Sequence record: NC_048748.1
Length of the DNA stretch: 64,000 nt
Source: Escherichia phage vB_EcoS_HdH2
Strand: one strand, 5' to 3'
Shown: positions 3,121-54,443 of the stretch, piece by piece
How the letters are laid out: the number at the start of each line of letters is the position of its first letter
Numbering within the stretch: the first letter of the stretch is position 1
Translations under genes and position numbers: made by a program
The notes under the pieces: generated by a model
What the model saw: the letters and a program-made list of their open reading frames with translations, nothing else
Database searches by the model: none
What the model was told of the DNA's origin: nothing

Positions 3121-3135
3121 CTTATTTCCTTAATT

Positions 3136-3212
3136 TGGTAGGGGTGGTGGGATTCGAACCCACAAAACCTGAATTTTAAGTCCAGTACCTATGCCAATTC
3201 GATTACACCCCC
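3136..3212 (-). tRNA. tRNA with anticodon UAA (Leu by anticodon) but a short 5-nt variable arm
   Basis: Acceptor GGGGGTG/CACCCCT, anticodon stem-loop CTGGA-CTTAAAA-TTCAG, T-arm GTGGG-TTCGAAT-CCCAC, A-CCA end. Confidence 0.55.
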
Positions 3213-3428
3213 GTGTAATTTAGTCAATTACTTTTGAAGCTTCAAGGTAGTCGATATAGTGTACGTTTTCTACCGTAATCATATAATCTGCCACTTTATC
3301 CATAGCTTGGGCTTCAGAGGTAGCTCTGGCTAACCTATATCCTTTTTTATATTCATCAGGGTATTCTCTATCTTGAATAAACACAACATAAACTATGTAT
3401 AATTCCACTTGTAATCCCCTAATTAAGT

Positions 3429-3506
3429 TGGTGGCTCCCCGAGGATTCGAACCTACGTACCTTCCGGTTATGAGCCGGGTGCTCATACCATATGAGCTTG
3501 AGAACC
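3429..3506 (-). tRNA. tRNA-Met/Ile-like (anticodon CAU) with imperfect T-stem
   Basis: Acceptor GGTTCTC/GGGAGCC, D-stem GCTC/GAGC, anticodon loop CTCATAA, T-loop TTCGAAT with two mismatches at the base of the T-stem, A-CCA end. Confidence 0.45.
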
Positions 3507-3512
3507 AGAATT

Positions 3513-3601
3513 TGGCGGAAGAAGTGGGAATCGAACCCACAAGGCTATATTTCAAACCGACAGATTAGCAATCTGCTGCAATACCGTTATGCTATTCTTC
3601 C
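3513..3601 (-). tRNA. tRNA-Ser (anticodon GCU), type II
   Basis: Acceptor GGAAGAA/TTCTTCC, anticodon stem-loop GCAGA-TTGCTAA-TCTGT, long variable arm, T-loop GGTTCGATTCC, G-CCA end; early promoter directly upstream (3603-3660). Confidence 0.7.
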
Positions 3602-3621
3602 GAATTTATAAATATATTATA

Positions 3622-4140
3622 TTAGAAATTTAACTTCATAGCAAGAAAATTTTTCAAGTTTTCGGTAGACATCTCATCCACATCTATAGGAGAAACAAAC
3701 CCATTTAATTGTCTAGCAAACTTTTCGCCAGCAGGATCATTATCCCCAACAGCTACCAATTTAAAAGGTAGTAATTTCAATTGCTTTAACAACGCTTTTC
3801 CGGGGGAAGAACCCAACATTGCTAGGGCAGGATAACCAGCGTTATGTAACGCAACTGCCTTAAATACAGATTCAGCAATCAATACTACTTTTTCATCTCC
3901 ATTGAGAGTTTCTAGTCCCCATACACACTGTGTAGTAGAATAAGTAAAATATTTAGCCTCAAAGGGACACTTACCATGACCTTTTGGAGCAGAAGGATTA
4001 TAAGTCTGATAGCCTCTCAACATCCCAGAGAAGTCATACAATGGGACTGTTAGCCAGCCTTCTGGGCTTAACCAGCAATGATATTTATCTGTATCAAACC
4101 CTCTAGATAAGAGATGTTCTGTTAGTTCATCAACAGTCAT
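3622..4140 (-). CDS. Toprim-domain protein (primase/topoisomerase-like fold)
   Basis: Acidic motif LIAESVFKAVAL ... VAVGDNDPAGEKFA typical of Toprim; start moved to the internal ATG (MTVDELTE) that sits behind RBS GAGAGG and the promoter at 4155-4205. Confidence 0.45.
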   Translation of the reverse strand: MTVDELTEHLLSRGFDTDKYHCWLSPEGWLTVPLYDFSGMLRGYQTYNPSAPKGHGKCPFEAKYFTYSTTQCVWGLETLNGDEKVVLIAESVFKAVALHNAGYPALAMLGSSPGKALLKQLKLLPFKLVAVGDNDPAGEKFARQLNGFVSPIDVDEMSTENLKNFLAMKLNF

Positions 4141-4313
4141 ATTAGATTCCTCTCTCAAATTTATAAATATATTATACAGAGAATTTAGCATTCAAGCAAT
4201 TGAATTTTTTAACTTTTTAGAGGAAAATCATAGGATGCTTAAGGGTAGCAGATAAGTGGTGAGTACCGAAATTTGTGACCCCACTAAAAATCTGGGGGCA
4301 ATTTTTAAAGACC

Positions 4314-4345
4314 CCTTGACATTTTCGCCGGGGTAGTGTAAAGTA
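4314..4345 (+). promoter_or_regulatory. consensus-like sigma70 promoter (TTGACA, 17-nt spacer, TAAAGT) driving the plus-strand cassette
   Basis: -35 TTGACA at 4316-4321 and -10 TAAAGT at 4339-4344; shares the 15-mer TTGACATTTTCGCCG with the promoter at 33382. Confidence 0.6.
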
Positions 4346-4406
4346 TATGTTATGGATGAGTGATCAAAGAGACACACATTTTCTATATACTAGGAGGTGT
4401 CAAAAA

Positions 4407-5396
4407 ATGACAGAAGAAGTAGCTAAGAGTCCTGAAACCGTCGCTAGCGTAGCAGCAGAACTGCATCGTCACGAGGAATCAGATAAGAAAAAGTGGGAGA
4501 AAGTCAAAGCCTACGAAGAAGAACATCGTGAACACGATGATAAAGATGAAGAAGATGACGATGATGAACATTGTCATAAATATGGAAAACATAAAATGCA
4601 AGAACCAGTAAACGTATTTACTAACGGCTTCCCTGGCATGGGTGCATTCCCAGCTAACGCAAGTGCTTTCGGTGGAGAAGGTATGGGCCTATTCGGAGCT
4701 ATCCTAATCGGTGCTCTATTAACAGGCGGATTTGGTGGTTTCGGTGGATTCGGTGGACGTGGTGTAGTTAGTGATGGTACCGCAGTTGATGCAGTACTTC
4801 AGAACCAAGATACCGCTAGTATTCTAGCAGCTATTAACACTACTCGTACAGAAGCTAATCAGGGTACTGGAGCTGTTTTAAGCGCAGTTAACAATGGTTT
4901 TAGCCAGACATCCCAAAACCAGAGCCGTGATACTCAGTCTGTACTAACTACGATCTATGGTACAGGTGCTAATCTGTCTAATCAGATCTGCCAGGAAACT
5001 CGCAACGTTATTCAGGGTCAGTTCGATCTTTCTCGCCAGATTGATCAATCTTTCGCAGCTAACCAGATAGCTCGTGCACAAGATAAGTTTGATTCTGCAC
5101 AGATCGCTTTCCAGCAGACTTTACAAACTAATAACCAGTTTGCCGCTGTTCAGGCTCAGATGTGTGCTAACCAGAACTCTCTGGAACGTCAGATCGCTGA
5201 ATGTTGCTGTGAACTTCAGACTGCGATCGCTGGTGTAACTACTGCGCGTATCCAGGATGAGTTAGACGCATGTCGCCTACGTGAAGCAATCGCTGCGGGT
5301 AGCGGTGCTAACGGTCAGGTAATTAATCAAATCGCTTTAAGTCTTGGTGCTATCACTCAGACTCTGGCTGGTCTGCAGGCTAAACTGCCGGCTTAA
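4407..5396 (+). CDS. hypothetical membrane-anchored protein: acidic His-rich N-terminus, Gly-rich TM helix, Q/N-rich C-terminal domain with CCC motif
   Basis: ORF with AGGAGGTG RBS before ATG 4407; hydrophobic segment GLFGAILIGALLTGGFGGFGGFGG; codon usage resembles highly expressed genes; opposite strand to its neighbours. Confidence 0.55.
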   Translation: MTEEVAKSPETVASVAAELHRHEESDKKKWEKVKAYEEEHREHDDKDEEDDDDEHCHKYGKHKMQEPVNVFTNGFPGMGAFPANASAFGGEGMGLFGAILIGALLTGGFGGFGGFGGRGVVSDGTAVDAVLQNQDTASILAAINTTRTEANQGTGAVLSAVNNGFSQTSQNQSRDTQSVLTTIYGTGANLSNQICQETRNVIQGQFDLSRQIDQSFAANQIARAQDKFDSAQIAFQQTLQTNNQFAAVQAQMCANQNSLERQIAECCCELQTAIAGVTTARIQDELDACRLREAIAAGSGANGQVINQIALSLGAITQTLAGLQAKLPA

Positions 5397-5417
5397 TATT
5401 AAGGGGAGGAGCCCATT

Positions 5418-5837
5418 ATGAGTAAATATGGTTTTGTAAATAACGGACTTAATCAAAGTATGGGCTCCCAGCAGCCCATTCCGGGTCTGGATAATCCCTA
5501 CTTACAACAGTTGCAACAGCGTTTAGCAGAAGCGCAACAGATGCAGCAACAACTCCAGCAAAACCCTGGAAGTGTGAGTCCTATGCAAATGATGCAGCAA
5601 ATGAGTGGGCAGTCGCAAATGCCTCAACAAATGCAGCAACAGATGCCGCAGCAGCAGCAAGTTCAGCAACAAACCCATCAACCGCAGGTTTCTGCGGAAG
5701 GACAGGCAGTACTAGCCCTTTTCGAAGACTTCGCAAAGACAGAGGATGGGAAGCAGCTTGTATCACTTATGGGTAAGTTTAATAGCTTCTGCCAAAGCCA
5801 AATTGCAAAAGCTCAAAATAGCGGTGATAACTCCTAA
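5418..5837 (+). CDS. hypothetical glutamine-rich low-complexity protein (139 aa)
   Basis: ORF with GGGGAGGAG RBS; extremely Q-rich (QQMQQQLQQ, MPQQMQQQMPQQQQVQQQ). Confidence 0.5.
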   Translation: MSKYGFVNNGLNQSMGSQQPIPGLDNPYLQQLQQRLAEAQQMQQQLQQNPGSVSPMQMMQQMSGQSQMPQQMQQQMPQQQQVQQQTHQPQVSAEGQAVLALFEDFAKTEDGKQLVSLMGKFNSFCQSQIAKAQNSGDNS

Positions 5838-5846
5838 GGAGGAATT

Positions 5847-6041
5847 ATGTGTTGCAGAAAATCTGTTTCGTGCTGCCCAATGCCTGTAGCACGTTGTTGC
5901 TCTCCAGCAATGTTTACGCAAATACCGGCGTTCAATCCGTTTGCCTTTAAGCCTACTCTTATCCTGCCCCCTAGAGTAGATTTTCAGTCAAGATTGGCCT
6001 CCCGTATGGGTGGTTGCTGTAACAAGAGTATATGGTTCTAA
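5847..6041 (+). CDS. hypothetical Cys-rich small protein (64 aa) with four CC doublets
   Basis: ORF with AGGAGG RBS directly after the previous gene; CC at residues 2-3, 9-10, 17-18 and 57-58; followed by terminators. Confidence 0.4.
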   Translation: MCCRKSVSCCPMPVARCCSPAMFTQIPAFNPFAFKPTLILPPRVDFQSRLASRMGGCCNKSIWF

Positions 6042-6056
6042 AGAACCAAACAATAA

Positions 6057-6090
6057 AGCCCCTAGTCGAAAGACTTAGGGGCTTTTTCTT
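6057..6090 (+). terminator. rho-independent terminator ending the plus-strand cassette
   Basis: Hairpin AGCCCCTAGTC-GAAA-GACTTAGGGGCT followed by TTTTT. Confidence 0.65.
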
Positions 6091-6107
6091 TTGCCTTAAA
6101 ATACAGA

Positions 6108-6140
6108 AAAGCCCGCGCTCTCGGAGAAAACGCGGGCTTA
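6108..6140 (-). terminator. rho-independent terminator after the SPFH gene (hairpin shared with the plus-strand cassette end)
   Basis: Inverted repeat AAGCCCGCG...CGCGGGCTT; on the minus strand it is followed by TTTTCTGTATTTT. Confidence 0.55.
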
Positions 6141-6162
6141 GTTCGAAGATTACGTGTAACTA

Positions 6163-7110
6163 TTACTTGTTACGCATATCCATGATCATTTGACCATCAT
6201 AGCCAGTGCCAACTACAGTCTGAGGTACACCACCTTGATATTTCTGAGCACGAATCATCTCAACTTCCAGTTGTTTCCAACGAATCATCTCAGGAGTAAT
6301 GGTACGTTGTAGTGCGGCGTTAGCTTCAGCTTCTTTCTTAGCTGCGTACAGTTTAGCATCTGCGTCACGTTCATTAGCAATAGCTTGGTTATTGCGAGCT
6401 TCACGATCTGCTTCTGCTTGTTTAACTTTTTGCTGTGCTTCCTGTTCAACGCGGGCAAGTTCAGCTTTCGCAGCGTTAACTTGCTCTTCACGAACTTTGG
6501 TATTCTGTACCTGTTCCATGATTACCGGTGGCAAAGTAATATCCTGAAGAAACACCTGCTTAACTGTGTAACCATATGGGCGTGCATACTCTTCAACTTC
6601 CTGTTGAATTGCAGTTTGCAATTGAGCCTGAATTTTAGCATCAAACAAATCTTGTGCTTTAGGTACAGACTTACCAAACTCACGAATAGTAGACAGTAAT
6701 TTTTCAGTTACATATTTGTCTAACGCTTGATCCTGAGTACCTGCATTAATACGGTTAATCGGTGCCTTAGAACCATCAAACTGCAACATAACAGTCAGGT
6801 CAACAGTGGATTTAAACTTATCCTGACTAGGGACCTGAAGTTTATCTAATTTTAGAGCAATATCTTTAGTACTAAAAGTATCGAAAGAAGCAAAAGGATT
6901 TACAATATGAAAGCCGGGTAATACTGGGCTAGGGTCAACCTTACCCAGGAAGGTCTGGGTTTTAACAGTACCGTCTTGAACAACAGTGTAAGAGTTAAGA
7001 GCCAGAACTAAACCTACCAAACCAACTGCAGCCCCAATACCCCAACGTTTGATATTACGCATTAATTTTTGCTCATAAGTCAGTTCTTTAGTGTTTTTAG
7101 TAGCAAACAT
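6163..7110 (-). CDS. SPFH/band-7 family membrane protein (HflC/stomatin-like)
   Basis: N-terminal TM helix (IGAAVGLVGLVLAL), SPFH-like core (YTVVQDGTVKTQTFLGKV), charged Ala/Glu/Gln-rich coiled-coil tail; RBS AAAGGAAAT; directly downstream of tRNA-Arg. Confidence 0.6.
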   Translation of the reverse strand: MFATKNTKELTYEQKLMRNIKRWGIGAAVGLVGLVLALNSYTVVQDGTVKTQTFLGKVDPSPVLPGFHIVNPFASFDTFSTKDIALKLDKLQVPSQDKFKSTVDLTVMLQFDGSKAPINRINAGTQDQALDKYVTEKLLSTIREFGKSVPKAQDLFDAKIQAQLQTAIQQEVEEYARPYGYTVKQVFLQDITLPPVIMEQVQNTKVREEQVNAAKAELARVEQEAQQKVKQAEADREARNNQAIANERDADAKLYAAKKEAEANAALQRTITPEMIRWKQLEVEMIRAQKYQGGVPQTVVGTGYDGQMIMDMRNK

Positions 7111-7144
7111 ATATTTCCTTTATTTTAGTTACAGTTAATAAAAT

Positions 7145-7219
7145 TGGCCGAGGTGACAGGATTCGAACCTGCATAAAGGAATTTAGAAGACTCCTGCCTC
7201 TCCCTTAGACTACACCCCG
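7145..7219 (-). tRNA. tRNA-Arg (anticodon UCU)
   Basis: Acceptor CGGGGTG/CACCTCG, anticodon stem-loop GGAGT-CTTCTAA-ATTCC, T-arm GCAGG-TTCGAAT-CCTGT, G-CCA end. Confidence 0.7.
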
Positions 7220-43822: not shown

Positions 43823-44800
43823 ATGAGAATATTATTTAGTGCTGATCATCATATCAAACTAGGACAAGATAAAGTTCCAAAGGAATGGCAGAAGCGTCGC
43901 TTCCTGATGCTAGGAGAACGGTTAAATGATATATTCCATAATCATAACTGTGATCTTCATATTGCTGGTGGTGATATACTTGACGTTGCCGACCCGTCGT
44001 CAGAAGAAATAGAACTGCTTGAACAGTTCATGTCAAGACTCGACCATCCAGGCAAAATCTTTACTGGAAATCATGAAATGTTAACTAAAACCATTTCATG
44101 TCTATATCATTATGCAGGAGTTATTAATAAAGTAACGAGTGGTAAGTGGGAAGTAATTACTAAACCATATCGTTCCCCTGAATTTGATATTGTTCCATAT
44201 GACGAAATCCATAAATCTAAGTGGAAACCATCTGAATCAAAACTATGTTTCACACATGTTCGTGGTGAAATCCCTCCACATGTAAAACCAGAAATTGATC
44301 TAACTAAGTATAACTGTTATGATACTGTAATTGCTGGCGATTTACATTCTTATACTAATAGCCAGACTATCGGATCTACTAGACTTCTCTACCCAGGGTC
44401 TCCATTAACTACATCGTTCCATAGAGAACGCACAAAAGGTACAAATGGTTGCTTTATCATTGATACCGACACATTAAAAGTAGAATGGATTGAACTAGGG
44501 GATTTACCACAACTGATTCGTAAAACAATCGGAGCTGGTGAAGAGATGGAACCTAGTGATTATGATCGTGTAGTCTATGAAGTTACTGGTGACGTTGTTC
44601 AATTAAAGTCTATTAAAGACTCTGATTTATTAGATAAGAAGATTAACCATCGAGTTACTAAAGATGCTAAGTTAAATCTTGTTGATCTTGATATGTTAGG
44701 TGAACTTGAACTTTACTTCCGTGAAGTCGAGAAGCTATCTCAAGGCGACATTGATAGAATCTTGGCTAGAGCTGCGAAATATGTCAAAGATTACAATTAA
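43823..44800 (+). CDS. Mre11/SbcD-like nuclease (calcineurin-like phosphoesterase)
   Basis: Phosphoesterase motifs SADHH, GGDILD, GNHE. Confidence 0.7.
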   Translation: MRILFSADHHIKLGQDKVPKEWQKRRFLMLGERLNDIFHNHNCDLHIAGGDILDVADPSSEEIELLEQFMSRLDHPGKIFTGNHEMLTKTISCLYHYAGVINKVTSGKWEVITKPYRSPEFDIVPYDEIHKSKWKPSESKLCFTHVRGEIPPHVKPEIDLTKYNCYDTVIAGDLHSYTNSQTIGSTRLLYPGSPLTTSFHRERTKGTNGCFIIDTDTLKVEWIELGDLPQLIRKTIGAGEEMEPSDYDRVVYEVTGDVVQLKSIKDSDLLDKKINHRVTKDAKLNLVDLDMLGELELYFREVEKLSQGDIDRILARAAKYVKDYN

Positions 44801-46619
44801 GACACTAAAATTTAGTAACGTTATGTCTTACGGTAAGGACATCGTAATTCATTTCGATAAGAATCCAGTTACTCAACTAATTGGTGGCAATGGGCTAGGG
44901 AAATCCACCATCGCTACGGTTATCGAGGAATTGTTTTATAACAAGAACTCACGTGGTATTAAGAAAGATGCTCTGTTCTCTTGGAATGCCCCTAAGAAAG
45001 AATACGATATGCACGCTTACTTTTCAAAAGATGATGATGAGTATGAGCTGCATAAAGTAGTTAAGTCAACTGCTAAAGTAACGTTGATTAAGAATGGGGA
45101 AGATATTAGTGGACATACGGCAACCCAAACATACAAGATAATTGAAGAGATTATGGGTGGTGACTTTCAAACATTCACCAAACTGATTTATCAATCAGTG
45201 GGTTCCAACCTAGATTTTCTAAAAGCAACAGATGCAACACGTAAGGCTTTTCTTGTTAACTTGTTCAATCAAGAGCAATACAAAGAAATGTCGGAAACTG
45301 TTAAGGCTGACCGTAAAGAAATAGCAAATACCTTAAATAATTTGCAGGGCCAGATGGCTGTAATTACGAAAATCCTTAATGGGAAAAATAATCTCGGGAG
45401 TTTACAGGAACCGGTTGAAGTTCCTGAGTTTGATGAAGAACCATTAGCACAAGAACTTACTGAATCGAAAATTAAGGCGGCATTAGCCAAGTCTCAAGAG
45501 GCTAATATTACTAAATTGCGTAATTTGGACAAAGCTGTACAAGTTGCCGAACAATCTTTCGAGCCTTTCAAAAATTTGCCCGCGCCCACTGACCAAAACG
45601 AAGAGATCTCAAGTGTTACGCGTGACCTAACGATTGTGACCTCACGTGCGGGCGAAGTTAAGAAACGTTATCAGAAGTTCAAGCAAGAAGCTTCAAATAC
45701 TGAATGCCCTACTTGTGGTACTCATCTGGATACAACTGCTGCTCAAAAAGCAATGGATATGGCTAGAATAGAATATGATCCTCTGTTCAAAGAGAAGCAA
45801 TCTCTTGAAGCTAAGCTAGAACAGTTGAAGAAAGAACAACTTGAGTACGTTGCGTATACTAGAGCAAAGGATGCTTTGGATAAAGCGGTGGTAGCTAGAG
45901 ACGAGTTCAAAAATTCAATGAGTGATGCTTCTTTTGAAGAACTCAATGTGCAAATCCTACAGGTGCAAATCCGACAATTAGAACAGGCAATCGCTGATGG
46001 ACGTTCTAAGGTTGCAATTGCCAAAGAGCATAATGCAAATGTCGAATTAGCTAATGCAAAATATAAAGCGAAAATAGAACAGATTGAGAAAGCTGAAGCA
46101 GAAATGTCTGAGATTACTTCCAAACTGAATGGAGTATCAGAAGCTGTAGCTGATCTTGATATTCTAATTGCTGCTTTGAAAAATCTGGTGGGATATAAAT
46201 TAGAGCATAGTGTGAAAGTATTTGAAGAACTAATTAATAAATACCTTTCCATTATGACTGGAGGTAAATTCGCACTTGGATTTGAACTTGATGAAACAAA
46301 ATTACAAGTAGTAATCTTCAATGATGGAAACCGTACCAGTATGGAGAACTGCTCTACTGGTCAGCAAAGTCGAATTAATCTAGCAACATTGTTAGCGATT
46401 CGTATGCTGTTAACATCTATTAGTAAAGTTAATATTAATCTTCTATTCCTTGATGAAGTAATTAGCTTTATTGATACGAAAGGACTTGATACTCTCGTTG
46501 AACTATTAAATGAGGAAGAAAGTCTAAATTCTATCATTGTTTCTCATGGGCATACGCATCCATTAGCTCATAAGATTACTGTCAAAAAAGATGCAGAAGG
46601 ATTTTCCTACTTAGAATAA
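44781..46619 (+). CDS. Rad50/SbcC-like ATPase with zinc-hook coiled coil
   Basis: Walker A GGNGLGKST, CPTCG hook inside a long coiled coil, signature STGQQSR, Walker B LLFLDEV; start at ATG (MSKITIK) overlapping the Mre11-like gene. Confidence 0.75.
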   Translation: MSKITIKTLKFSNVMSYGKDIVIHFDKNPVTQLIGGNGLGKSTIATVIEELFYNKNSRGIKKDALFSWNAPKKEYDMHAYFSKDDDEYELHKVVKSTAKVTLIKNGEDISGHTATQTYKIIEEIMGGDFQTFTKLIYQSVGSNLDFLKATDATRKAFLVNLFNQEQYKEMSETVKADRKEIANTLNNLQGQMAVITKILNGKNNLGSLQEPVEVPEFDEEPLAQELTESKIKAALAKSQEANITKLRNLDKAVQVAEQSFEPFKNLPAPTDQNEEISSVTRDLTIVTSRAGEVKKRYQKFKQEASNTECPTCGTHLDTTAAQKAMDMARIEYDPLFKEKQSLEAKLEQLKKEQLEYVAYTRAKDALDKAVVARDEFKNSMSDASFEELNVQILQVQIRQLEQAIADGRSKVAIAKEHNANVELANAKYKAKIEQIEKAEAEMSEITSKLNGVSEAVADLDILIAALKNLVGYKLEHSVKVFEELINKYLSIMTGGKFALGFELDETKLQVVIFNDGNRTSMENCSTGQQSRINLATLLAIRMLLTSISKVNINLLFLDEVISFIDTKGLDTLVELLNEEESLNSIIVSHGHTHPLAHKITVKKDAEGFSYLE

Positions 46620-46622
46620 AAC

Positions 46623-47105
46623 ATGGCTGTAGATAGTAGAGAGAAAGGTAAACGTGGTGAATATCAGGTAAGAGATATTCTACGTGAGCGTACAGGTCTT
46701 GAGTGGGAACGTGTTCCTGGCTCTGGTGCTTTTGGCCAGAGCCACGGACTGAAGGGTGACATCTACCTTCCACCACAAAGCGGACACATTAGTAAATACT
46801 GCTTCGAGGTTAAGTGGTATAAAGATGATAATATATCAAGTAATTTATTTAATGTTGGTGAATCCACTCTAGAGAAGTGGTGGCAGCAGTGCTCACGTGA
46901 AGGTGAGCAGATGAACTCCAAACCTGCATTAATATTCAAGAAAGACAGAGGACAGTGGTTAATAGCTTTGGATAGCTCAGACCCGATGGTTGACAACTTA
47001 ATGAGTCGTACCCATATGGTGTTAAATAAGAAAGACATGGAAATCGTAATTGGTTTATTTGAGCCATGGCTACATCATGCATCTGTTGAGGACTTAATTA
47101 AATAA
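46623..47105 (+). CDS. PD-(D/E)xK nuclease-fold protein, possible Hjc-like Holliday-junction resolvase
   Basis: Pattern KGKRGEYQVRDIL...GSGAFGQ...GDIYL...CFEVKW resembles the Hjc catalytic core. Confidence 0.45.
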   Translation: MAVDSREKGKRGEYQVRDILRERTGLEWERVPGSGAFGQSHGLKGDIYLPPQSGHISKYCFEVKWYKDDNISSNLFNVGESTLEKWWQQCSREGEQMNSKPALIFKKDRGQWLIALDSSDPMVDNLMSRTHMVLNKKDMEIVIGLFEPWLHHASVEDLIK

Positions 47106-47980: not shown

Positions 47981-48423
47981 TTAAAATTAAATTAACTCAT
48001 CCAGATTGTATGCCTAAGATTGGTTCCGAGGATGCCGCAGGTATGGATCTGCGAGCATTCTTTGGTACTAACCCTGCTGCAGATTTACGAGCTATTGCAC
48101 CAGGTAAATCTCTAATGATTGACACCGGTGTCGCGGTGGAAATTCCGCGAGGTTGGTTCGGTTTGGTAGTTCCACGTAGTTCTTTAGGTAAACGCCATCT
48201 GATAATTGCAAATACCGCAGGGGTGATCGACTCAGATTATCGTGGAACTATTAAGATGAACCTGTTTAACTACGGTTCTGAAATTCAAACATTAGAAAAT
48301 TTCGAGAGACTTTGTCAACTAGTAGTAGTACCACACTACTCAACTCATAATTTTGAAATCGTTGATAAACTAGAGGAGACTGATCGTGGAGAAGGTGGAT
48401 TTGGAAGCTCAGGAAGTAAGTAA
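47977..48423 (+). CDS. dut: dUTPase
   Basis: dUTPase motifs (AGMDLRA, PRSSLG, GVIDSDYRG, GGFGSSG). Confidence 0.8.
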   Translation: MIKIKLTHPDCMPKIGSEDAAGMDLRAFFGTNPAADLRAIAPGKSLMIDTGVAVEIPRGWFGLVVPRSSLGKRHLIIANTAGVIDSDYRGTIKMNLFNYGSEIQTLENFERLCQLVVVPHYSTHNFEIVDKLEETDRGEGGFGSSGSK

Positions 48424-48658
48424 TTTTACTGATCCTAATGGAGTAGGCCTAGACTTAGCTGAACCTACTAATTTCTATCATGTGGCTGTTGCTCAGCCTG
48501 ATCTTAACAAAATTGTACTTAAAGTCGATATGTTTGGTAATGTGGAACAGTGGGATGAGGAAGGATTCTTGAACCTATGTAATGAGTCTCAAGATCCAAC
48601 TCTCAAAGCCATGTTAGCCGTGTATAACTTAGGTATTATCAAAGGAAGTAAAGATTAA
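48386..48658 (+). CDS. hypothetical protein (about 90 aa)
   Basis: ORF overlapping the dut 3' end, last gene before the bidirectional terminator. Confidence 0.4.
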   Translation: MEKVDLEAQEVSNFTDPNGVGLDLAEPTNFYHVAVAQPDLNKIVLKVDMFGNVEQWDEEGFLNLCNESQDPTLKAMLAVYNLGIIKGSKD

Positions 48659-48662
48659 TAAA

Positions 48663-48695
48663 AACCCCAGTGGATTGTCCACTGGGGTTTTCTTT
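48663..48695. terminator. bidirectional rho-independent terminator between the convergent replication and tail modules
   Basis: Hairpin CCCCAGTGGA-TTG-TCCACTGGGG flanked by AAAAA on one side and TTTTCTTTT on the other. Confidence 0.7.
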
Positions 48696-50938
48696 TACTT
48701 AGCCTTTAACTCAGCTATCTGAAGTTTTAGCTCCTCTATCTGATTGCTTAGATTTTGAATTGCCGCTAGAGCATCTAATAGAAGCACATTCTCATCTAGG
48801 GCCAGAGAAGTAGAACCGTCGGAAGATTCGTATTTTCTTACATATTGACTATCAATCTCCTCTAGTTGTTGCGCGATAAAACCTCTACGTACCTGATTCC
48901 CTTTATCATATATGTACTTAAATGAGGTATACTCCATCTGCTTAATATTCTCCAGAGCAATGGAAGTACTTAAGGATTCAATATCCTTTTTCTTATTACG
49001 ATCTGAAACTGGGGACTTACTAAATATATAGTTAACAGTACCTGCATTATCACCAAAAGTAATATCATAACTAGTACCATTAAAGATAGTATTTCTAACA
49101 GCGTTACCACTAGGGGATTCCCCCGTACTAAGATCGTAATCCCAGCATTGCGTAAGCATTGCATTTGGGTGGGCGTTAATATCACTCCCCATAGTAAGTG
49201 TACCTAGAGCCGTATAGCTTCTCCAAGCGCCTCCAGGCCCTCCTGTACCTCCACCAACAATAGGGACAAAAGCTCCATAGAGGGAAGTATTCCACCAATC
49301 TTGTGCTCTAAAAGGAGTGTACCCATAAGCTAAAGGAGTTGCAGAACCCCCTGTAGCTCTTCCCAGTCTAATTGCACCGTCTAACCCGAAATTAAAGTGG
49401 GCCACATCTATCTCACTTACTAATTGGTTTTCTACAGCTATAACACCCACTAAGTTTCGTGCATAGGCACCTTGAGCATACATACGCATCCTATAGGCAT
49501 CTGTTGTACCCACTCTGTATTGAGAGGTTAGTTTACCACCTAATACAGTTGTACTAACTGCAGGAGCCGAGGCATCAGCATTAATAGAAGAAAAGTCTGT
49601 ATTAGCAGCATTAAAAGAACCATTAGCACGGATAATCCAAATACCTGTTGCATGGTTAGGGTATAGGTCACCAATAGGGCCAGTACCGCCGGGGTCTGAT
49701 TGGTAAGCAGGACCACGTCCATATGTCTTGTTACTTCTAGAGGCCGAAAATCCTAAGTGGTCTCCCTTATCTGAACCTCCTACAGTAAAGGAACTACCTG
49801 TATCTTGAGCATTTAAATAAAAAGCCCCCATGGCATCTGCAGCATCAGCGTTACTACCATGAGTATAGAAAGTACCAGTAATATTGGGGGCAGTCTGATT
49901 CCACACCTGATTAGCAGACGGTTCATTAGTGGCTCCAGAACTACCAGATAAGAATAGATGCTTAATACTATTTAACTGTGTACCATTAAGATCAGGAACT
50001 CGGAAAGTAGTAGAACCATCACCAGTAGAGTAGGAAGCTCTCCAAGCGCTAGGTCTATTAGGATCCCCACTATTAATCCATAAAGCGTCGGAAACAGCGT
50101 AAAATAGACCACTAGATACCGCAGACCATAGATCTGCTGTTTTAGCATCAGTACGGCTAACTAACTGACCATCTGCTGGTATATAGCCGGCTGGCAGGTT
50201 AGTACGGTTACCATTGAACCATTCAACAGCACCAATACGGTTATTCATAACTCCACTCATGCTAGCACCACCTCCTCCTGAGATATTAGCTAGCTGACGA
50301 ACAGTAACAGCATCATAAGGTGCTTGACCATCGGCGGCTAATGCTAGAGGTTTACCATCTAGCAGCTTAGTTAAGGCCTCCGCAGGAGTACTAGCACCGG
50401 TACCACCAGATTGAATAGGTAAAGGTATAAATGTACCAGAAGCTGTGCTATAAACTCCCCATGTAGTACCTTCACCAACAGTAAGATAGTTTGTCGCATA
50501 AGGACTATATACTAGAGTTTCACCGGGGAACTGCTTAAACCTATTAAGCTCTAAGTTAGCTCTAGCATTTTCCGCAGTGCTAGCCCCTGTACCACCCTGA
50601 GCAACCGTAATAGCCTTAGTAAGTGCGTTTAGTTCAGTAATATCGTTATTAGCACCTTTAGCAGCTTTAGTGTTAAGAGTACTATTAATACTACCAATTG
50701 CAGTATTAATATTCCCAATAGCATCAGTGTTACTTTTGATAGAGCTATCAATACCAGTTAAACGCGTATTAAGTTCTTGCTGATCTAAGTTATATTTAGA
50801 AATTTGTAGATATTTGGATGTTAGTACGACAGCACCAGCTTCTCCATCAACAGAGAAAACGCCGGCAACTGCGGCGTCTCTATTAACTACAACATAGGGG
50901 GCCATAGCCCCACTTTTTGGCATTAAATTACGTGACAT
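48695..50938 (-). CDS. ltfB: L-shaped tail fibre protein, second gene (LtfB-like) with C-terminal intramolecular chaperone domain
   Basis: Gly/Thr/Ser-rich fibre repeats; C-terminus has a chaperone-domain-like segment paralogous to that of the upstream gene. Confidence 0.6.
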   Translation of the reverse strand: MSRNLMPKSGAMAPYVVVNRDAAVAGVFSVDGEAGAVVLTSKYLQISKYNLDQQELNTRLTGIDSSIKSNTDAIGNINTAIGSINSTLNTKAAKGANNDITELNALTKAITVAQGGTGASTAENARANLELNRFKQFPGETLVYSPYATNYLTVGEGTTWGVYSTASGTFIPLPIQSGGTGASTPAEALTKLLDGKPLALAADGQAPYDAVTVRQLANISGGGGASMSGVMNNRIGAVEWFNGNRTNLPAGYIPADGQLVSRTDAKTADLWSAVSSGLFYAVSDALWINSGDPNRPSAWRASYSTGDGSTTFRVPDLNGTQLNSIKHLFLSGSSGATNEPSANQVWNQTAPNITGTFYTHGSNADAADAMGAFYLNAQDTGSSFTVGGSDKGDHLGFSASRSNKTYGRGPAYQSDPGGTGPIGDLYPNHATGIWIIRANGSFNAANTDFSSINADASAPAVSTTVLGGKLTSQYRVGTTDAYRMRMYAQGAYARNLVGVIAVENQLVSEIDVAHFNFGLDGAIRLGRATGGSATPLAYGYTPFRAQDWWNTSLYGAFVPIVGGGTGGPGGAWRSYTALGTLTMGSDINAHPNAMLTQCWDYDLSTGESPSGNAVRNTIFNGTSYDITFGDNAGTVNYIFSKSPVSDRNKKKDIESLSTSIALENIKQMEYTSFKYIYDKGNQVRRGFIAQQLEEIDSQYVRKYESSDGSTSLALDENVLLLDALAAIQNLSNQIEELKLQIAELKAK

Positions 50939-53900
50939 TAACTAGTACCTTTCATTTTGTCTAACTCTGCTTCTATATTTGATAATCTAGTCATCAAATC
51001 AAGCTTTTCGTTAATGTTGTCAATAACAGTGGACATCTCCTGTAATTTAGTCTCAAGAGACTTATTTCTTTCAGATAATACTTTAATAGCAGCTAAAGCA
51101 TCCATTAATAATGGGTTGGTATCTAGAGTTAAAGTAATATCGTCAGTTTCAGGGTTGCCAACAGATTTAACATATTGAGGATCAATCAACTCTAATTGTT
51201 GTGCAATAACACCACGTCTAATATTCTTTTTCTTATCAAACTTATATGTGAATTTCTTGAACTCCATTTTTTCAATATTTTCAAGAGATTCTTCACCCGA
51301 TACGTCCTGAATATTATCTTTTAAATTGATATCAGATACCGCATTTTTAGTATAAGTAAAGTTAAAGACAACGTTATCATAGTCTGATCCCCATCCGTTA
51401 ATATCCCCTGACATGTGGAACTGGTAGGTGCATGCCCAATTAGAGTCCCCGCGCAGTCTAAATACATAGGCAGGCCAAGCAGTAGGGCCACTGGCTATTA
51501 ATCCAGTAGTAGCCCTCATCGGGTAACCACCTGTAGATTGAGTTCTGGCACTAATAATAGGCACAAACCCGTGATCATTATCTACTACATCAGAAGCTTG
51601 AAAAGGAGCGAAGAAACCAAATGAATCCCCATCCCAGGGTTTCTGGTATCCTTGAGTATGCATGCGCTCTGCATTCCAAGCCCCGGAATCCATATACAGA
51701 TTAGCATATTTAGTAGCAGTAAAGGAACCGTCTGCAGTACGTCTATAGGCAGCTATCGTAGCTCTTTCAGTAAGAGATTGGCCATAATTACCTTCTGAGT
51801 AAAATAGCGCTTCTAAACGAGGTGTGTCTGGATCCACCGAGTTATCCAACTGGACTTGTGCAGAAAAAACCTCCGATCCTATGTAAGATCCCGCCGAAGG
51901 AACCGCGTGGTATTTACGGGAAATAACACCACCATTCTTAATATTAATAGGCCAACCTTCCAGATTACGTAGCTGAGTAATATCGAAGTTAATACCAGCA
52001 CTTGCAGCCTCTAGGTTTTTTCTAGCTTGAGCTGGCTCAGTAGCTCCAGTACCCCCATGCTCAACAGGTAAAGATACCCACTTGTTCTCAGAATGGTCGT
52101 ATACTCCCCAGTTTTTAGTGTCTTGGACCATAAACACTATATTTTGATCCTGAGAGGTTATATGTGTTCCTCCTTCTAGCTGCTTTACTCTATCCACTTC
52201 TAGGTTAGTTTTGGCGGAACTAACTGTAGAAGCTCCTGTCCCTCCTTTAGCTAGACTTAAGACACCTTGAGTATCACCATTTAGATCTGGCTTGTTAACA
52301 GTACCATAAAGAATATTAGTATGAACAATAGGGTTTTCACTATCTAAACCAGCATCATTGATTGCAGCTACAAATACTGCGGCACTACCATACCCAGCAC
52401 AGATAAATGAATTAGTATCTGCTACCCTAGAGTAGAAACCTGCAGAATACGAGGGCAAGCCCTCAACTCCAGTATCATTGCGATAATATCCAGAACCAAA
52501 AGCTCTCATAGCTTTAAAGAAGGATACTAGATCTGGCTCATTTAACGTAATACCAGCACCACCTAAGCCAAAAGCACCGCGAAGTAGAACTTCCCCATCA
52601 GTACCATTCCAAGCATTCTTAGTAACAACGTTACCTAGTGCTAGGTTACCATTCTCGTCTGGTATAATAGTTCCATTAACCATAGCCACGTAAGGGAGCT
52701 TAATAGCTCCAGTATCGTCAGCAGGACTAATCCCATTCACAGTGGTAATATAAGGAATTTGTTCTTTGATAGCACCAGCATCTTCTTCACCCTTAGTTGG
52801 TGCACGGAATGCCTGTCCCTGCATCATATCTGGTAGACGGAAAGTAGTAGTACCATTACCAGTGGAGAAATAGAGAGTTGCACCTGCTTGCCATTGTTCT
52901 TCGGTAACAGAAGGGATTAAGCCAGCCTCAATAGCTTCCCAAGTATCTGGGTAGTCTACACGAAGAACTTCACGACCATCAGCAGGAAGAACACCAGGGT
53001 AGCCAACACCTGAATCTTTATCATAAGGGAACCAAGTAACTTCACCCAGCCATAAAGAGGGGTTACCACCAGGAAGAGTAATCTGTACGTTACCTGCGTC
53101 ATCTGCACGAACGTTGTTAATAGAAACTAGCTTTTGCTCTGTCTCTACTAACTCTAATACTGGAGTCTCAGCAGTTCCAGCTACTTTGTACCAACCGTAC
53201 TTTGAATCAGTTTGATTCCATACTAAAATCTTTTCACCTAATACACGACTAGATACATCTGCATCAGCTTCAGCTTTAGTTTTATATACTTTGATAAATC
53301 CAGAAATATCTTCTTTATCAAGTTTAGTGTCTACTATTTGAGCAGCACGATCAGCTTCTGCTTTAGCGCGATTAGCCTCAGTAGTTGCATTTCCTGCCTG
53401 ATTAGTGGCTTCACCCTCAGATGCAGCAGCATTAATCTCAGACGTTTTAGCATTTAATTCCGATTGCTTAGCAGCAGCAGCATGTTCTCCAGCAGTTGTA
53501 GCAGAATTAGCAGCTTTTATTTCGGAAGAGGCGGTTCTTTTCTCAGCAGCTTCTGCACCAGTTTGGGCTGTCTGTGCAGCTATTTTAGCCTGTTCAGCTA
53601 ATAAACGACTTTGTTCAGCATTCTGCGCTGCCAATTCGGCAGAGTCTCTAAATCCCTTTGATTCTTGCGCAGAAGCTGCAGAATTATCTGCACTGCTTTG
53701 GGCTAATCCCGCCTGTTTTTCTGACTCAGTAGCAGAGGCAGCAGATTGAGTTGCTGAAGCTTCGGAAGCACCAGCATGAATACCTGCCTGAATCTCTGAA
53801 TCTTTAGCTTTATTTTCAGAGTCTTTAGCTGCTATTTCAGAACCTTTAGCAGCAGCAGCGGATCCTGCAGCGGCCTCTACAGCAGCAGTTAATTCACCAG

Positions 53901-54021
53901 CAGTAATAGAACTAATAGAATTACCTAAAACTACTGTATATTTAGGATACTTACTAGCAGTAGTTGTAGTATCATCTATGTTCAGAATCTGCTGTACAAT
54001 AATTTTAGTTTTAAGTGCCAT
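50938..54021 (-). CDS. ltfA: L-shaped tail fibre protein, first gene (LtfA/pb1-like) with C-terminal intramolecular chaperone domain
   Basis: N-terminus [41 protein letters not shown] matches recalled T5 pb1; Ala-rich coiled coil; C-terminal chaperone-like segment. Confidence 0.7.
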   Translation of the reverse strand: MALKTKIIVQQILNIDDTTTTASKYPKYTVVLGNSISSITAGELTAAVEAAAGSAAAAKGSEIAAKDSENKAKDSEIQAGIHAGASEASATQSAASATESEKQAGLAQSSADNSAASAQESKGFRDSAELAAQNAEQSRLLAEQAKIAAQTAQTGAEAAEKRTASSEIKAANSATTAGEHAAAAKQSELNAKTSEINAAASEGEATNQAGNATTEANRAKAEADRAAQIVDTKLDKEDISGFIKVYKTKAEADADVSSRVLGEKILVWNQTDSKYGWYKVAGTAETPVLELVETEQKLVSINNVRADDAGNVQITLPGGNPSLWLGEVTWFPYDKDSGVGYPGVLPADGREVLRVDYPDTWEAIEAGLIPSVTEEQWQAGATLYFSTGNGTTTFRLPDMMQGQAFRAPTKGEEDAGAIKEQIPYITTVNGISPADDTGAIKLPYVAMVNGTIIPDENGNLALGNVVTKNAWNGTDGEVLLRGAFGLGGAGITLNEPDLVSFFKAMRAFGSGYYRNDTGVEGLPSYSAGFYSRVADTNSFICAGYGSAAVFVAAINDAGLDSENPIVHTNILYGTVNKPDLNGDTQGVLSLAKGGTGASTVSSAKTNLEVDRVKQLEGGTHITSQDQNIVFMVQDTKNWGVYDHSENKWVSLPVEHGGTGATEPAQARKNLEAASAGINFDITQLRNLEGWPINIKNGGVISRKYHAVPSAGSYIGSEVFSAQVQLDNSVDPDTPRLEALFYSEGNYGQSLTERATIAAYRRTADGSFTATKYANLYMDSGAWNAERMHTQGYQKPWDGDSFGFFAPFQASDVVDNDHGFVPIISARTQSTGGYPMRATTGLIASGPTAWPAYVFRLRGDSNWACTYQFHMSGDINGWGSDYDNVVFNFTYTKNAVSDINLKDNIQDVSGEESLENIEKMEFKKFTYKFDKKKNIRRGVIAQQLELIDPQYVKSVGNPETDDITLTLDTNPLLMDALAAIKVLSERNKSLETKLQEMSTVIDNINEKLDLMTRLSNIEAELDKMKGTS

Positions 54022-54443
54022 TATTGAGTTACTCCATCGCTGATGTATACTTTACCTTCCATAATACGGAAAGAACTGACTTCAGAGCCAATTACATCAC
54101 GAGTCATTAGGATATCATAATAACCAGCAAAGCGTTGTCTTGGGTTATACTTATCACGTTCTTTAGATGCTTTTTCACCAATATTAGTAACGTCTGCAAC
54201 GGAAAGACTAATTGCAGCAGCACCTTGAGCAGCATCAATAACGCGAGTTTTAAAGTTAGCTAGAACTTCGGCGTTCTCGTCTAAGCTAGACTTAATAGTT
54301 CCTCGGAGTGAATATCCGGTTAAGTTAACAGGAACTTCTGTTGGTGGATACACACTATCATCAACATCCATAAATTGCATGATAAGACCATAAGGTACTT
54401 TTTCATCAATAACAATATCAATAACTCTATTTTCAGTACTCAT
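54021..54443 (-). CDS. hypothetical tail-module protein (140 aa)
   Basis: ORF between the pb4-like and ltfA genes in the late operon. Confidence 0.5.

What the first reader, a model, noticed from the sequence alone, without database searches (positions are those of the whole stretch)
48695..54021. Two consecutive L-shaped tail fibre genes, each ending in its own chaperone-like C-terminal domain
Instead of one long ltf gene, the window has a 1027-aa gene with a T5 pb1-like N-terminus and a 747-aa second gene, both ending in a paralogous C-terminal segment. The segments share a LENIxxMEx(K/T)xFxY...RRG(V/F)IAQQLExID core, which I take to be an intramolecular chaperone (auto-cleaved) domain. This implies a branched or dual-specificity fibre as reported, to my recollection, for some T5-like phages. 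The distal receptor-recognition parts are the most divergent and would define host range.
Basis: partly seen in the sequence, partly recalled or inferred. Interest (0 to 1): 0.4.

Follow-up and report, generated by a model that had tools for sequence, protein, structure and literature searches.

The report
Two-gene T5-like lateral tail fibre
This is the already described ltfA/ltfB pair of a T5-like coliphage (the proteins are identical to those of phage vB_EcoS_HdH2): two host-recognition tail-fibre proteins, each with its own self-cleaving folding domain, and it is an ordinary, published arrangement.

Summary
Two intact minus-strand ORFs of 1027 aa (50938-54021) and 747 aa (48695-50938) are joined by a TAATG stop/start overlap. 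Both end in a Peptidase_S74 intramolecular-chaperone domain whose Ser/Lys pair aligns with the proven T5 pb1 Ser1264/Lys1269.

The interpretation also holds. Gene 1 is an LtfA:
- its N-terminus is T5-pb1-like and is 84% identical to DT57C LtfA over residues 1-442;
- it carries the phiEco32-gp14-like module proposed to dock LtfB.

Gene 2 is an LtfB. Its first 45 residues are 71% identical to phiEco32 gp15, and its first 60 are 88% identical to DT57C LtfB. The dock module and the LtfB N-terminus are found in almost the same number of phage records (240 versus 234).

A frameshift artefact is excluded.

It is not new. Both proteins are identical to RefSeq entries of Escherichia phage vB_EcoS_HdH2, and Korf et al. 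2019 already noted its two fibre genes. The branched LtfA/LtfB model was published in 2016. Branching and dual O-antigen specificity are inferred here by homology, not shown. Interest is low.

The parts
54021..54443 (-). ltfC, the collar protein onto which the lateral fibre is mounted (140 aa)
   Evidence: Pfam PF23926 LtfC, E 1.7e-15. 94% identical to DT57C LtfC. Its stop overlaps the ltfA start.
50938..54021 (-). ltfA, lateral tail fibre protein A (1027 aa)
   Evidence: ORF. phrog_5481 tail fibre, E 0. PDB 8hqz_d (DT57C LtfA), E 3e-237. Identical to YP_009843454.1 of phage vB_EcoS_HdH2.
53332..54021 (-). LtfA residues 1-230: T5-pb1-like N-terminus (attachment to the LtfC ring) followed by an Ala-rich coiled-coil shaft
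   Evidence: 46% identity to T5 Ltf 1-215, E 1e-25. Nearly identical to the resolved N-terminal part of DT57C LtfA (PMC10713586).
52696..53355 (-). LtfA residues 223-442: phiEco32-gp14-like module containing a tail-collar-type fold, the proposed docking site for LtfB
   Evidence: 42% identity to phiEco32 gp14 239-461, E 3e-46. PDB 7z47_D (SU10 gp12), E 1e-41. This stretch has no counterpart in T5 Ltf. It occurs in 240 phage records, against 234 for the LtfB N-terminus.
52012..52287 (-). LtfA residues 579-670: double GGTGAS module, paralogous to LtfB 102-192
   Evidence: BLASTP 40% identity, E 1e-16.
51337..51948 (-). LtfA residues 692-895: distal, presumed receptor-binding part
   Evidence: Diverges completely from DT57C LtfA. 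95% identical to Salmonella phage HMD-P5. 37-40% identical to the distal half of T7-type podovirus fibres. The AF2 model is of low confidence here.
50941..51336 (-). LtfA residues 896-1027: intramolecular chaperone / S74 autoprotease domain with a long C-terminal helix. Predicted cleavage is between V895 and S896.
   Evidence: PF13884, E 1.3e-12. S896/K901 align with T5 S1264/K1269. pLDDT 87-97. Foldseek hit to 7dc3, E 1.8e-5, and to 3gw6, probability 1.0.
48695..50938 (-). ltfB, lateral tail fibre protein B (747 aa)
   Evidence: ORF. phrog_6921 over its full length, E 3e-152. 95% identical to ZJUN2 LtfB, 84% to Sw2, 37% to DT57C LtfB over the full length. Identical to YP_009843453.1 of HdH2.
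50804..50938 (-). LtfB residues 1-45: conserved N-terminal adaptor, proposed to plug into LtfA
   Evidence: 71% identity (32/45) to phiEco32 gp15 1-45. The first 60 residues are 88% identical to DT57C LtfB. The adaptor is found in 234 phage records, about 143 T5-like and about 91 Kuravirus.
49982..50236 (-). LtfB residues 235-319: phage tail collar domain, paralogous to LtfA 325-399
   Evidence: Pfam PF07484, 24.9 bits against a cutoff of 24. BLASTP E 6e-10.
49007..49582 (-). LtfB residues 453-644: distal, presumed receptor-binding part
   Evidence: About 46% identical to the distal half of 523-548-aa fibre proteins such as that of phage vB_EcoD_Pubbukkers. Residues 540-644 are paralogous to LtfA 804-895. 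The AF2 model was unusable.
48698..49006 (-). LtfB residues 645-747: intramolecular chaperone / S74 autoprotease domain. Predicted cleavage is between V644 and S645.
   Evidence: PF13884, E 3.8e-13. S645/K650 aligned with the T5 dyad. S, D and K are invariant in alignment A2.
48660..48692 (.). Bidirectional intrinsic terminator hairpin that closes the fibre operon, facing the dut-side operon
   Evidence: Stem of 14-15 bp with T-runs on both strands. A feature at the same position in T5 is annotated as an 'efficient bidirectional rho-independent terminator'.

Best explanation
The locus is the lateral (L-shaped) tail-fibre operon ltfC-ltfA-ltfB of a T5-like phage, in its two-protein version first described for DT57C and DT571/2.

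Proposed mechanism:
- LtfA trimers attach through their T5-pb1-like N-termini to the LtfC collar on the tail.
- LtfA's mid-section (residues 223-442, the phiEco32-gp14-like module) offers a docking site.
- LtfB trimers have no homology to any T5 virion protein. They plug into that site through their conserved first ~45 residues. Each fibre therefore carries two distal tips.
- Each protein folds and trimerises with the help of its own C-terminal intramolecular chaperone. That domain then cuts itself off with a Ser-Lys dyad, before S896 in LtfA and before S645 in LtfB. This would leave mature proteins of about 895 and 644 residues and unmask the receptor-binding tips.
- The two divergent tips presumably bind two different O-antigen types, which widens the range of smooth hosts.

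Shown here: gene structure, all homology blocks, catalytic residues, the chaperone fold of LtfA, and the closely similar number of phage records carrying dock and adaptor.

Inferred from DT57C genetics and T5/K1F biochemistry: docking and branching, actual cleavage, and receptor identity.
For: Gene structure:
- Exact ORFs and the TAATG overlap.
- Gene order pb3-pb4-ltfC-ltfA-ltfB-terminator, identical to DT57C, Sw2 and ZJUN2.

Homology blocks:
- LtfA 1-442 is 84% identical to DT57C LtfA, 1-230 is 46% identical to T5 Ltf, and 223-442 is 42% identical to phiEco32 gp14.
- LtfB 1-45 is 71% identical to phiEco32 gp15. LtfB 1-60 is 88% identical to DT57C LtfB.
- LtfC is 94% identical to DT57C LtfC.

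Dock and adaptor:
- The dock module occurs in 240 phage records and the LtfB adaptor in 234. The genus breakdown is nearly identical across two unrelated phage groups, T5-like and Kuravirus.
- T5, which has a single Ltf, lacks the dock module.

Chaperone domains:
- PF13884 hits in both proteins.
- The Ser/Lys dyad aligns with T5 S1264/K1269 and is invariant in homologues.
- The chaperone part of the LtfA model is confident and matches 7dc3 and 3gw6.

Published genetics for the homologous system (PMC4728585):
- ltfA amber mutants lose both hosts.
- The ltfB opal mutant loses the LtfB-specific host.
- Swapping the C-terminal region of ltfA switches host.

Cryo-EM of DT57C found no LtfB density on the tail core (PMC10713586).
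Against: - No structure of an LtfA-LtfB junction exists in any phage. In DT57C only the N-terminal part of LtfA was resolved.
- The Kuravirus SU10 paper describes the homologous pair gp12/gp13 as 'proximal' and 'distal' parts of one elbowed fibre, not as a branch.
- In DT571/2 the ltfB opal mutant showed no fibres at all by EM. LtfB may therefore also be needed for LtfA stability, which is more than a simple side-branch model predicts.
- The co-occurrence rests on record counts, not on a record-by-record match.
- The receptor-binding parts could not be modelled. Nothing is known here about the receptors.
Confidence: 0.85

Rival explanations
1. Serial rather than branched fibre. LtfB is the distal half-fibre joined to LtfA at an elbow, as T4 gp34-37 are joined and as SU10 gp12/gp13 are described. 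LtfA's own distal part would be a minor knob and not a second functional tip.
For: [quoted passage not shown] No high-resolution junction structure exists.
Against: LtfA continues for about 450 residues after the dock module. It ends in its own complete distal domain plus chaperone. In DT57C and DT571/2 the C-terminal region of LtfA was shown by recombination to set host specificity independently of LtfB. An elbow seen in negative stain does not exclude a branch.
Confidence: 0.08
2. Two independent fibre sets. LtfB attaches to the tail by itself, for example at the tail tip, not through LtfA.
For: At low contour the DT57C map shows three weak fibre-like densities near the tail tip. The authors interpret them as folded-back LtfB.
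Against: LtfB has no BLASTP similarity to T5 Ltf, and the tail proteins checked here (LtfC, pb4) are T5-like. In DT571/2, the ltfA amber mutant loses the LtfB-dependent host as well. The LtfB N-terminus is found in almost the same number of records as the LtfA dock module, in two phage groups with unrelated tails. No robust LtfB density was found on the DT57C virion core.
Confidence: 0.05
3. Artefact: one long ltf gene split by a sequencing frameshift.
For: None was found beyond the adjacency of the two ORFs and their one-base overlap.
Against: - Gene 1 ends in a complete, confidently modelled chaperone domain and coiled coil, which is always C-terminal.
- Gene 2 begins with the N-terminus conserved in DT57C LtfB and phiEco32 gp15.
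- Gene 2 has no BLASTP match to T5 Ltf.
- The same two ORFs occur in Sw2 (also a one-base overlap), DT57C (38-nt gap) and ZJUN2 (58-nt gap).
- Identical proteins occur on several independent assemblies: clusters of 5 and 11 members.
Confidence: 0.01

Closest known systems
Escherichia phage vB_EcoS_HdH2 tail fibre proteins YP_009843454.1 and YP_009843453.1 (Korf et al. 2019, PMC6563267)
   Same: Both window proteins are identical in sequence over their whole length. [quoted passage not shown]
   Different: Nothing differs, so the window is very probably this phage. The publication gives no functional or domain analysis of the two genes.
LtfA/LtfB branched lateral tail fibres of phages DT57C and DT571/2 (Golomidova et al. 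2016, PMC4728585; cryo-EM Ayala et al. 2023, PDB 8hqz)
   Same: - Same gene order, ltfC-ltfA-ltfB.
- LtfA 1-442 is 84% identical.
- The LtfB N-terminal adaptor is 88% identical over 60 residues.
- LtfC is 94% identical.
- Both proteins end in S74 chaperone domains.
   Different: - The distal halves are unrelated or weakly related. LtfA after residue 442 shares only the chaperone domain at 27% identity. LtfB is 37% identical overall.
- The cleavage motif is V-S-D here and T-S-G in DT57C.
- The genes overlap by one base here, against a 38-nt gap in DT57C.
- No 19-aa tandem repeats follow the dock.
- Only short DNA repeats (40 nt or less) link ltfA and ltfB, so the A-B fusion deletions seen in DT530(1) are less likely.
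- The receptors are presumably different O-antigens.
Salmonella phage Sw2 gp086/gp087, with closest single alleles in Salmonella phage HMD-P5 (LtfA) and Escherichia phage vB_EcoS_HZ_ZJUN2 (LtfB)
   Same: Sw2 has the same two genes with the same one-base overlap. They are 82% and 84% identical over the full length. The HMD-P5 LtfA distal 585 residues are 95% identical. ZJUN2 LtfB is 95% identical.
   Different: The best matches for LtfA and LtfB lie in different phages, so the locus is mosaic. ZJUN2 LtfA diverges after residue 670.
Kuravirus fibre pair: phiEco32 gp14/gp15 (= SU10 gp12/gp13, PDB 7z47)
   Same: The gp14 239-461 module is 42% identical to LtfA 223-442. gp15 residues 1-45 are 71% identical to LtfB 1-45. 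gp15 182-721 is 41% identical to LtfB 180-743, including the chaperone domain.
   Different: This is a podovirus, and gp14 attaches to a portal adaptor through an unrelated N-terminus. The phiEco32 gp14 region aligned by BLASTP with LtfA ends at residue 575 and includes no S74 chaperone match. The SU10 authors describe the pair as proximal and distal segments.
T5 pb1 (Ltf), the single-polypeptide L-shaped fibre (PDB 4UW7/4UW8; Garcia-Doval et al. 2015, PMC4690869)
   Same: The N-terminal 230 residues are 46% identical, and there is a second block (LtfA 479-578 / T5 386-487, 37.5%). The C-terminal chaperone has the same Ser/Lys dyad spacing and a similar length, 133 aa against 132 aa.
   Different: T5 has one 1396-aa protein, no gp14-like dock and no LtfB. 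No sequence similarity was found between pb1's bullet-shaped receptor-binding domain (970-1263) and either distal part here. T5 binds polymannose O-antigen; the receptor here is unknown.

Membership tests
LtfA/LtfB two-protein lateral tail fibre of T5-like phages (DT57C type) | Two fibre genes directly downstream of ltfC in the T5-like tail module, in the order ltfC-ltfA-ltfB | tested here: met
   pb3, pb4 (four PB4 Pfam domains), LtfC (PF23926), then the two ORFs, then a terminator. DT57C, Sw2 and ZJUN2 have the same order.
LtfA/LtfB two-protein lateral tail fibre of T5-like phages (DT57C type) | LtfA N-terminus homologous to the T5 Ltf (pb1) N-terminus that mounts on the LtfC collar | tested here: met
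   46% identity over residues 1-230 with T5 Ltf and 84% over 1-442 with DT57C LtfA. PDB 8hqz_d, E 3e-237.
LtfA/LtfB two-protein lateral tail fibre of T5-like phages (DT57C type) | LtfA carries the phiEco32-gp14-like region (DT57C residues 223-471), the proposed LtfB contact | tested here: met
   LtfA 223-442 against gp14 239-461: 42% identity, E 3e-46. It also matches SU10 gp12 7z47_D, E 1e-41. T5 Ltf has no counterpart.
LtfA/LtfB two-protein lateral tail fibre of T5-like phages (DT57C type) | The first ~45 residues of LtfB are highly similar to phiEco32 gp15, and LtfB has no homology to T5 Ltf | tested here: met
   32/45 identical to gp15. 88% identical to DT57C LtfB over 60 residues. No BLASTP hit to T5 Ltf.
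LtfA/LtfB two-protein lateral tail fibre of T5-like phages (DT57C type) | Both proteins end in a pfam13884 autocleavable chaperone domain with the conserved cleavage motif | tested here: met
   PF13884, E 1.3e-12 and 3.8e-13. S-D-x3-K is present at 896-901 and 645-650.
LtfA/LtfB two-protein lateral tail fibre of T5-like phages (DT57C type) | LtfB is physically attached to the virion through LtfA (branched morphology) | not testable with these tools
   Only indirect support: the numbers of phage records carrying dock and adaptor are closely similar (240 against 234). Only single chains can be modelled here.
LtfA/LtfB two-protein lateral tail fibre of T5-like phages (DT57C type) | The two proteins recognise different O-antigen receptors | not testable with these tools
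   The distal parts differ from each other outside residues 804-895 / 540-644 and from the DT57C alleles. Receptor binding needs experiments.
Peptidase S74 / intramolecular chaperone auto-processing (ICA) domain | Profile match above the curated threshold | tested here: met
   48.2 and 50.0 bits against a gathering score of 22, covering profile positions 1-57 of 58. There is also a sequence hit to the MyRF ICA domain 7dc3, E 3e-5.
Peptidase S74 / intramolecular chaperone auto-processing (ICA) domain | Catalytic Ser and Lys five residues apart (T5 S1264/K1269; K1F endosialidase mechanism) | tested here: met
   The MAFFT alignment places LtfA S896/K901 and LtfB S645/K650 on T5 S1264/K1269. These residues are invariant in 34-sequence and 9-sequence homologue alignments. 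The role of the residues comes from PMC4690869.
Peptidase S74 / intramolecular chaperone auto-processing (ICA) domain | Chaperone fold: a mixed alpha/beta body followed by a long helix that forms a trimeric coiled coil | tested here: met
   Met for LtfA only. pLDDT is 87-97 over residues 896-1027, with a long terminal helix. Foldseek gives 7dc3 at E 1.8e-5, TM 0.65, and 3gw6 at probability 1.0. For LtfB the test was inconclusive: the model has mean pLDDT 35.
Peptidase S74 / intramolecular chaperone auto-processing (ICA) domain | Upstream folding-sensor residues (T5 Asp1239 and Arg1250 of a neighbouring chain) | tested here: inconclusive
   The region upstream of the cleavage site does not align reliably with T5, so no equivalents could be assigned.
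Peptidase S74 / intramolecular chaperone auto-processing (ICA) domain | Actual autoproteolytic release of the domain after trimer folding | not testable with these tools
   Needs protein expression or virion mass spectrometry. The predicted products are LtfA 1-895 and LtfB 1-644.
Single-polypeptide T5 pb1-type L-shaped fibre | One long ltf gene (about 1400 aa) ending in the pb1 bullet-shaped receptor-binding domain | tested here: not met
   There are two separate complete ORFs. Only residues 1-230 and 479-578 of LtfA match T5 Ltf. Nothing matches pb1 970-1263.

The most novel reading that the evidence does not exclude
The gp14-like dock in LtfA and the roughly 45-residue LtfB N-terminus may form a portable two-part connector that has moved as a pair between Kuravirus podoviruses and T5-like siphoviruses. 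Distal receptor modules may be swapped onto it from still other families. Here LtfA 692-996 is 37-40% identical to T7-type fibres, and LtfB 453-743 is about 46% identical to the fibre of phage vB_EcoD_Pubbukkers. If so, the receptors of this phage could be predicted from those unrelated phages, and the connector could be used to graft a second specificity onto single-fibre phages such as T5. The 2016 paper already suggested the first half of this idea. Only the quantified similarity in record counts and the cross-family distal matches are added here.
Probability: 0.4. Interest if true: 0.3.

Novelty: already known. Interest (0 to 1): 0.1.

Why it matters
Lateral tail fibres decide which O-antigen-shielded Escherichia coli or Salmonella strains a T5-like phage can infect. 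Knowing that a phage carries the two-protein, probably two-tipped version is useful for predicting host range and for engineering therapy or biocontrol phages. For this window it matters only as correct annotation: ltfA and ltfB, with predicted maturation sites V895|S896 and V644|S645, instead of two generic 'tail fiber protein' entries. No open question is advanced. The unresolved point in the field is the structure of the LtfA-LtfB junction, and sequence analysis of one more member does not address it.

Tried and rejected
- **AlphaFold2 of the LtfB distal segment (residues 430-747, 9-sequence alignment).** Mean pLDDT was 35. The model is unusable, so no fold search was run on it.
- **AlphaFold2 of the LtfA distal segment (residues 671-1027, 34 sequences).** Only the chaperone part is confident. 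The receptor-binding part is at pLDDT 65 or lower, so the Foldseek hits outside the chaperone (latexin, FimD and others) are noise. No fold can be assigned to the tip. Monomer prediction suits intertwined trimers poorly.
- **PDB sequence search with LtfB 1-134.** The aim was a solved adaptor-dock complex. Only GGTGAS-module hits came back (7z47_D, 8vbx_R); nothing covered residues 1-45.
- **PDB sequence search with the LtfA chaperone domain.** It did not retrieve T5 4UW8 or K1F 3GW6, which are too divergent. The link to them rests on Pfam, the dyad alignment and Foldseek.
- **Long DNA repeats between ltfA and ltfB.** These were sought as the recombination hot spot described for DT57C. Only repeats of 40 nt or less at 83% identity were found.
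- **Frameshift artefact.** Rejected; see the rival explanations.
- **The search for homologous proteins.** It returned no close T5-like relatives of either distal segment, although identical proteins are in that collection. The alignments were therefore shallower than they could have been.
- **Sigma-70 promoter scan of the locus.** Nothing stood out: 21 sites against 15.3 +/- 4.2 expected. No promoter claim is made.

Full report
**1. Observation**

The ORF list shows two intact minus-strand ORFs at exactly the stated coordinates: 50938..54021 (1027 aa) and 48695..50938 (747 aa). The junction reads GGTACTAGTTAATGTCACGT. The TAA stop of the first gene shares its last A with the ATG of the second, an arrangement typical of translational coupling.

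BLASTP between the two proteins gives three significant blocks:
- the C-terminal block, A804-996 / B540-744, 34% identity, E 7e-23;
- a double 'GGTGAS' module, A579-670 / B102-192, 40%, E 1e-16;
- a collar-type block, A325-399 / B235-317, E 6e-10.

**2. Context**

The genes lie in a T5-like tail module. Reading along the direction of transcription on the minus strand, the order is:
- pb3;
- pb4 (four PB4 Pfam domains, E down to 3.5e-199);
- a 140-aa LtfC collar protein (PF23926);
- the two fibre genes;
- a strong bidirectional terminator hairpin at 48660-48692. The T5 record annotates such a terminator at the same position.

The rest of the window is about 96% identical at the DNA level to T5 and its relatives. 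The fibre locus itself drops to 85% or less over its full length. This is the known hypervariability of the locus (PMC8594841).

**3. Identity of the two genes**

Gene 1 is an LtfA.
- Residues 1-442 are 84% identical to DT57C LtfA, whose N-terminal part is solved (PDB 8hqz, E 3e-237).
- Residues 1-230 are 46% identical to the T5 Ltf/pb1 N-terminus.
- Residues 223-442 are 42% identical to phiEco32 gp14 239-461 and match SU10 gp12 (7z47_D).
- T5's single Ltf has no counterpart of this last module.

Gene 2 is an LtfB.
- Its first 45 residues are 71% identical (32/45) to phiEco32 gp15. This is the same figure reported for DT57C LtfB in PMC4728585.
- Its first 60 residues are 88% identical to DT57C LtfB.
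- It has no BLASTP match to T5 Ltf.

LtfC is 94% identical to DT57C LtfC. Every sequence hallmark that Golomidova et al. 2016 used to define the LtfA/LtfB system is therefore present.

**4. Chaperone domains**

- Both C-termini match PF13884 Peptidase_S74 above threshold.
- An alignment with T5 Ltf, DT57C LtfA/B, phiEco32 gp15, Sw2 and ZJUN2 places LtfA S896/K901 and LtfB S645/K650 on T5 S1264/K1269.
- In T5, S1264A abolishes auto-proteolysis and the cut is at Thr1263|Ser1264 (PMC4690869).
- Ser, Asp and Lys are invariant in 34 and 9 database homologues.
- The AlphaFold2 model of LtfA 671-1027 is confident for the chaperone part (pLDDT 87-97) and ends in a long helix.
- Foldseek matches that model to the MyRF ICA domain (7dc3, E 1.8e-5, TM 0.65) and to the K1F endosialidase chaperone (3gw6, probability 1.0).

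Predicted mature products are LtfA 1-895 (132-aa chaperone released) and LtfB 1-644 (103-aa chaperone released). Cleavage itself is inferred.

**5. Docking and branching**

This is the inferred step. Evidence obtained here: the LtfA dock module (residues 240-442) is found in 240 phage records and the LtfB N-terminal adaptor in 234. The breakdown by organism name is almost identical:

| First word of organism name | Dock module | LtfB adaptor |
|---|---|---|
| Escherichia | 111 | 110 |
| Salmonella | 95 | 91 |
| Shigella | 5 | 5 |
| Klebsiella | 3 | 3 |
| Yersinia | 2 | 2 |

The identity bands split the same way, about 145 T5-like and about 90 Kuravirus records in each search. Two modules that appear to travel together in two phage groups with unrelated tails fit a cognate connector pair.

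Evidence from the literature on the homologous system:
- ltfA amber mutants lose growth on both smooth hosts.
- The ltfB opal mutant loses the LtfB-specific host.
- Exchanging the C-terminal region of ltfA switches host specificity.
- Cryo-EM finds no LtfB on the tail core.

Caveats:
- The junction has never been resolved.
- The SU10 authors describe the homologous pair as proximal and distal segments of one elbowed fibre.
- The DT571/2 ltfB opal mutant shows no fibres at all.

**6. Distal parts**

- The LtfA distal 585 residues are 95% identical to Salmonella phage HMD-P5.
- LtfB is 95% identical to E. coli phage ZJUN2 and 84% to Sw2. The locus is therefore a mosaic of known alleles.
- Outside T5-like phages, LtfA 692-996 is 37-40% identical to the distal half of fibres with a T7-gp17-type N-terminus (PF03906), for example in Shigella phage CT02.
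- LtfB 453-743 is about 46% identical to 523-548-aa fibre proteins such as that of phage vB_EcoD_Pubbukkers.

Structure prediction of the tips failed. No fold or receptor can be named.

**7. Frameshift test**

- Gene 1 ends in a complete chaperone domain.
- Gene 2 begins with a conserved N-terminus.
- Three independently sequenced phages have the same two genes, with a one-base overlap (Sw2), a 38-nt gap (DT57C) and a 58-nt gap (ZJUN2).
- Identical proteins occur on several independent assemblies.

**8. Novelty**

Both proteins are identical to YP_009843454.1 and YP_009843453.1 of Escherichia phage vB_EcoS_HdH2 (120,120-bp record). [quoted passage not shown]

The one-gene and two-gene alternatives at this locus are stated as known in the BASEL paper and the BF23 paper. 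By the record counts, roughly a third of T5-like records carry an LtfB (about 143 of about 413).

**Verdict**

The feature is already known. The useful output is a finer annotation: domain map, predicted maturation sites and the dock/adaptor record counts. Interest is low.

Noticed in passing
window 875-7219 (- strand): A cluster of 10 tRNA genes (Asp, Asn, Cys, Phe, Trp, Glu, Tyr, Leu, Ser, Arg). This fits the 21-24 tRNA genes reported for HdH2-type T5-like phages (PMC6563267).
   Followed up: no
window 48660-48692: A perfect 14-15-bp hairpin with T-runs on both strands sits between the converging dut-side operon and ltfB. T5 has an annotated bidirectional terminator at the same position.
   Followed up: partly
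window 48386-48658 (+): A 90-aa ORF overlaps the 3' end of dut. It is a homologue of T5.132 (phrog_5592, unknown function, E 5e-35). It is conserved in Sw2, but DT57C has no annotated CDS at this position.
   Followed up: partly
window 53405-53749 (+): A 114-aa Ala-rich antisense ORF lies inside the Ala-rich coiled-coil part of ltfA. It is probably a by-product of the GCN-rich repeat and not a gene. Short imperfect DNA repeats cluster in the same stretch.
   Followed up: no
window 51034-51948 (LtfA 692-996) and 48710-49582 (LtfB 453-743): The distal fibre modules have their nearest non-T5 relatives in other phage families. For LtfA these are fibres with a T7-gp17-type N-terminus, 37-40% identical. 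For LtfB they are 523-548-aa fibres such as that of phage vB_EcoD_Pubbukkers, about 46% identical. This points to exchange of tip-plus-chaperone cassettes across families.
   Followed up: partly
window 46619-46623, compared with L004 9355-9864: Phage ZJUN2 has an HNH homing endonuclease between the SbcC-like exonuclease gene and the RusA-like resolvase gene. In the window these two genes abut directly.
   Followed up: no
window 44700-44800: The mechanically called GTG start of the SbcC-like ORF (44700) overlaps the preceding ORF (43823..44800) by about 100 nt. The real start is probably the internal ATG (MSKITIKTLKF...) 27 codons downstream.
   Followed up: no
window about 20000 and about 48000: GC skew changes sign at both positions. 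This coincides with the switches of coding strand, minus to plus near 20 kb and plus to minus at the terminator near 48.7 kb.
   Followed up: no
database behaviour (against 63): the search for homologous proteins returned no close T5-like homologues of either distal segment. The identical HdH2 proteins and their 90% clusters are nevertheless present in the same collection. HdH2 is also absent from the 'phages' BLAST collection: the best full-locus hit is Sw2 at 85%.
   Followed up: no
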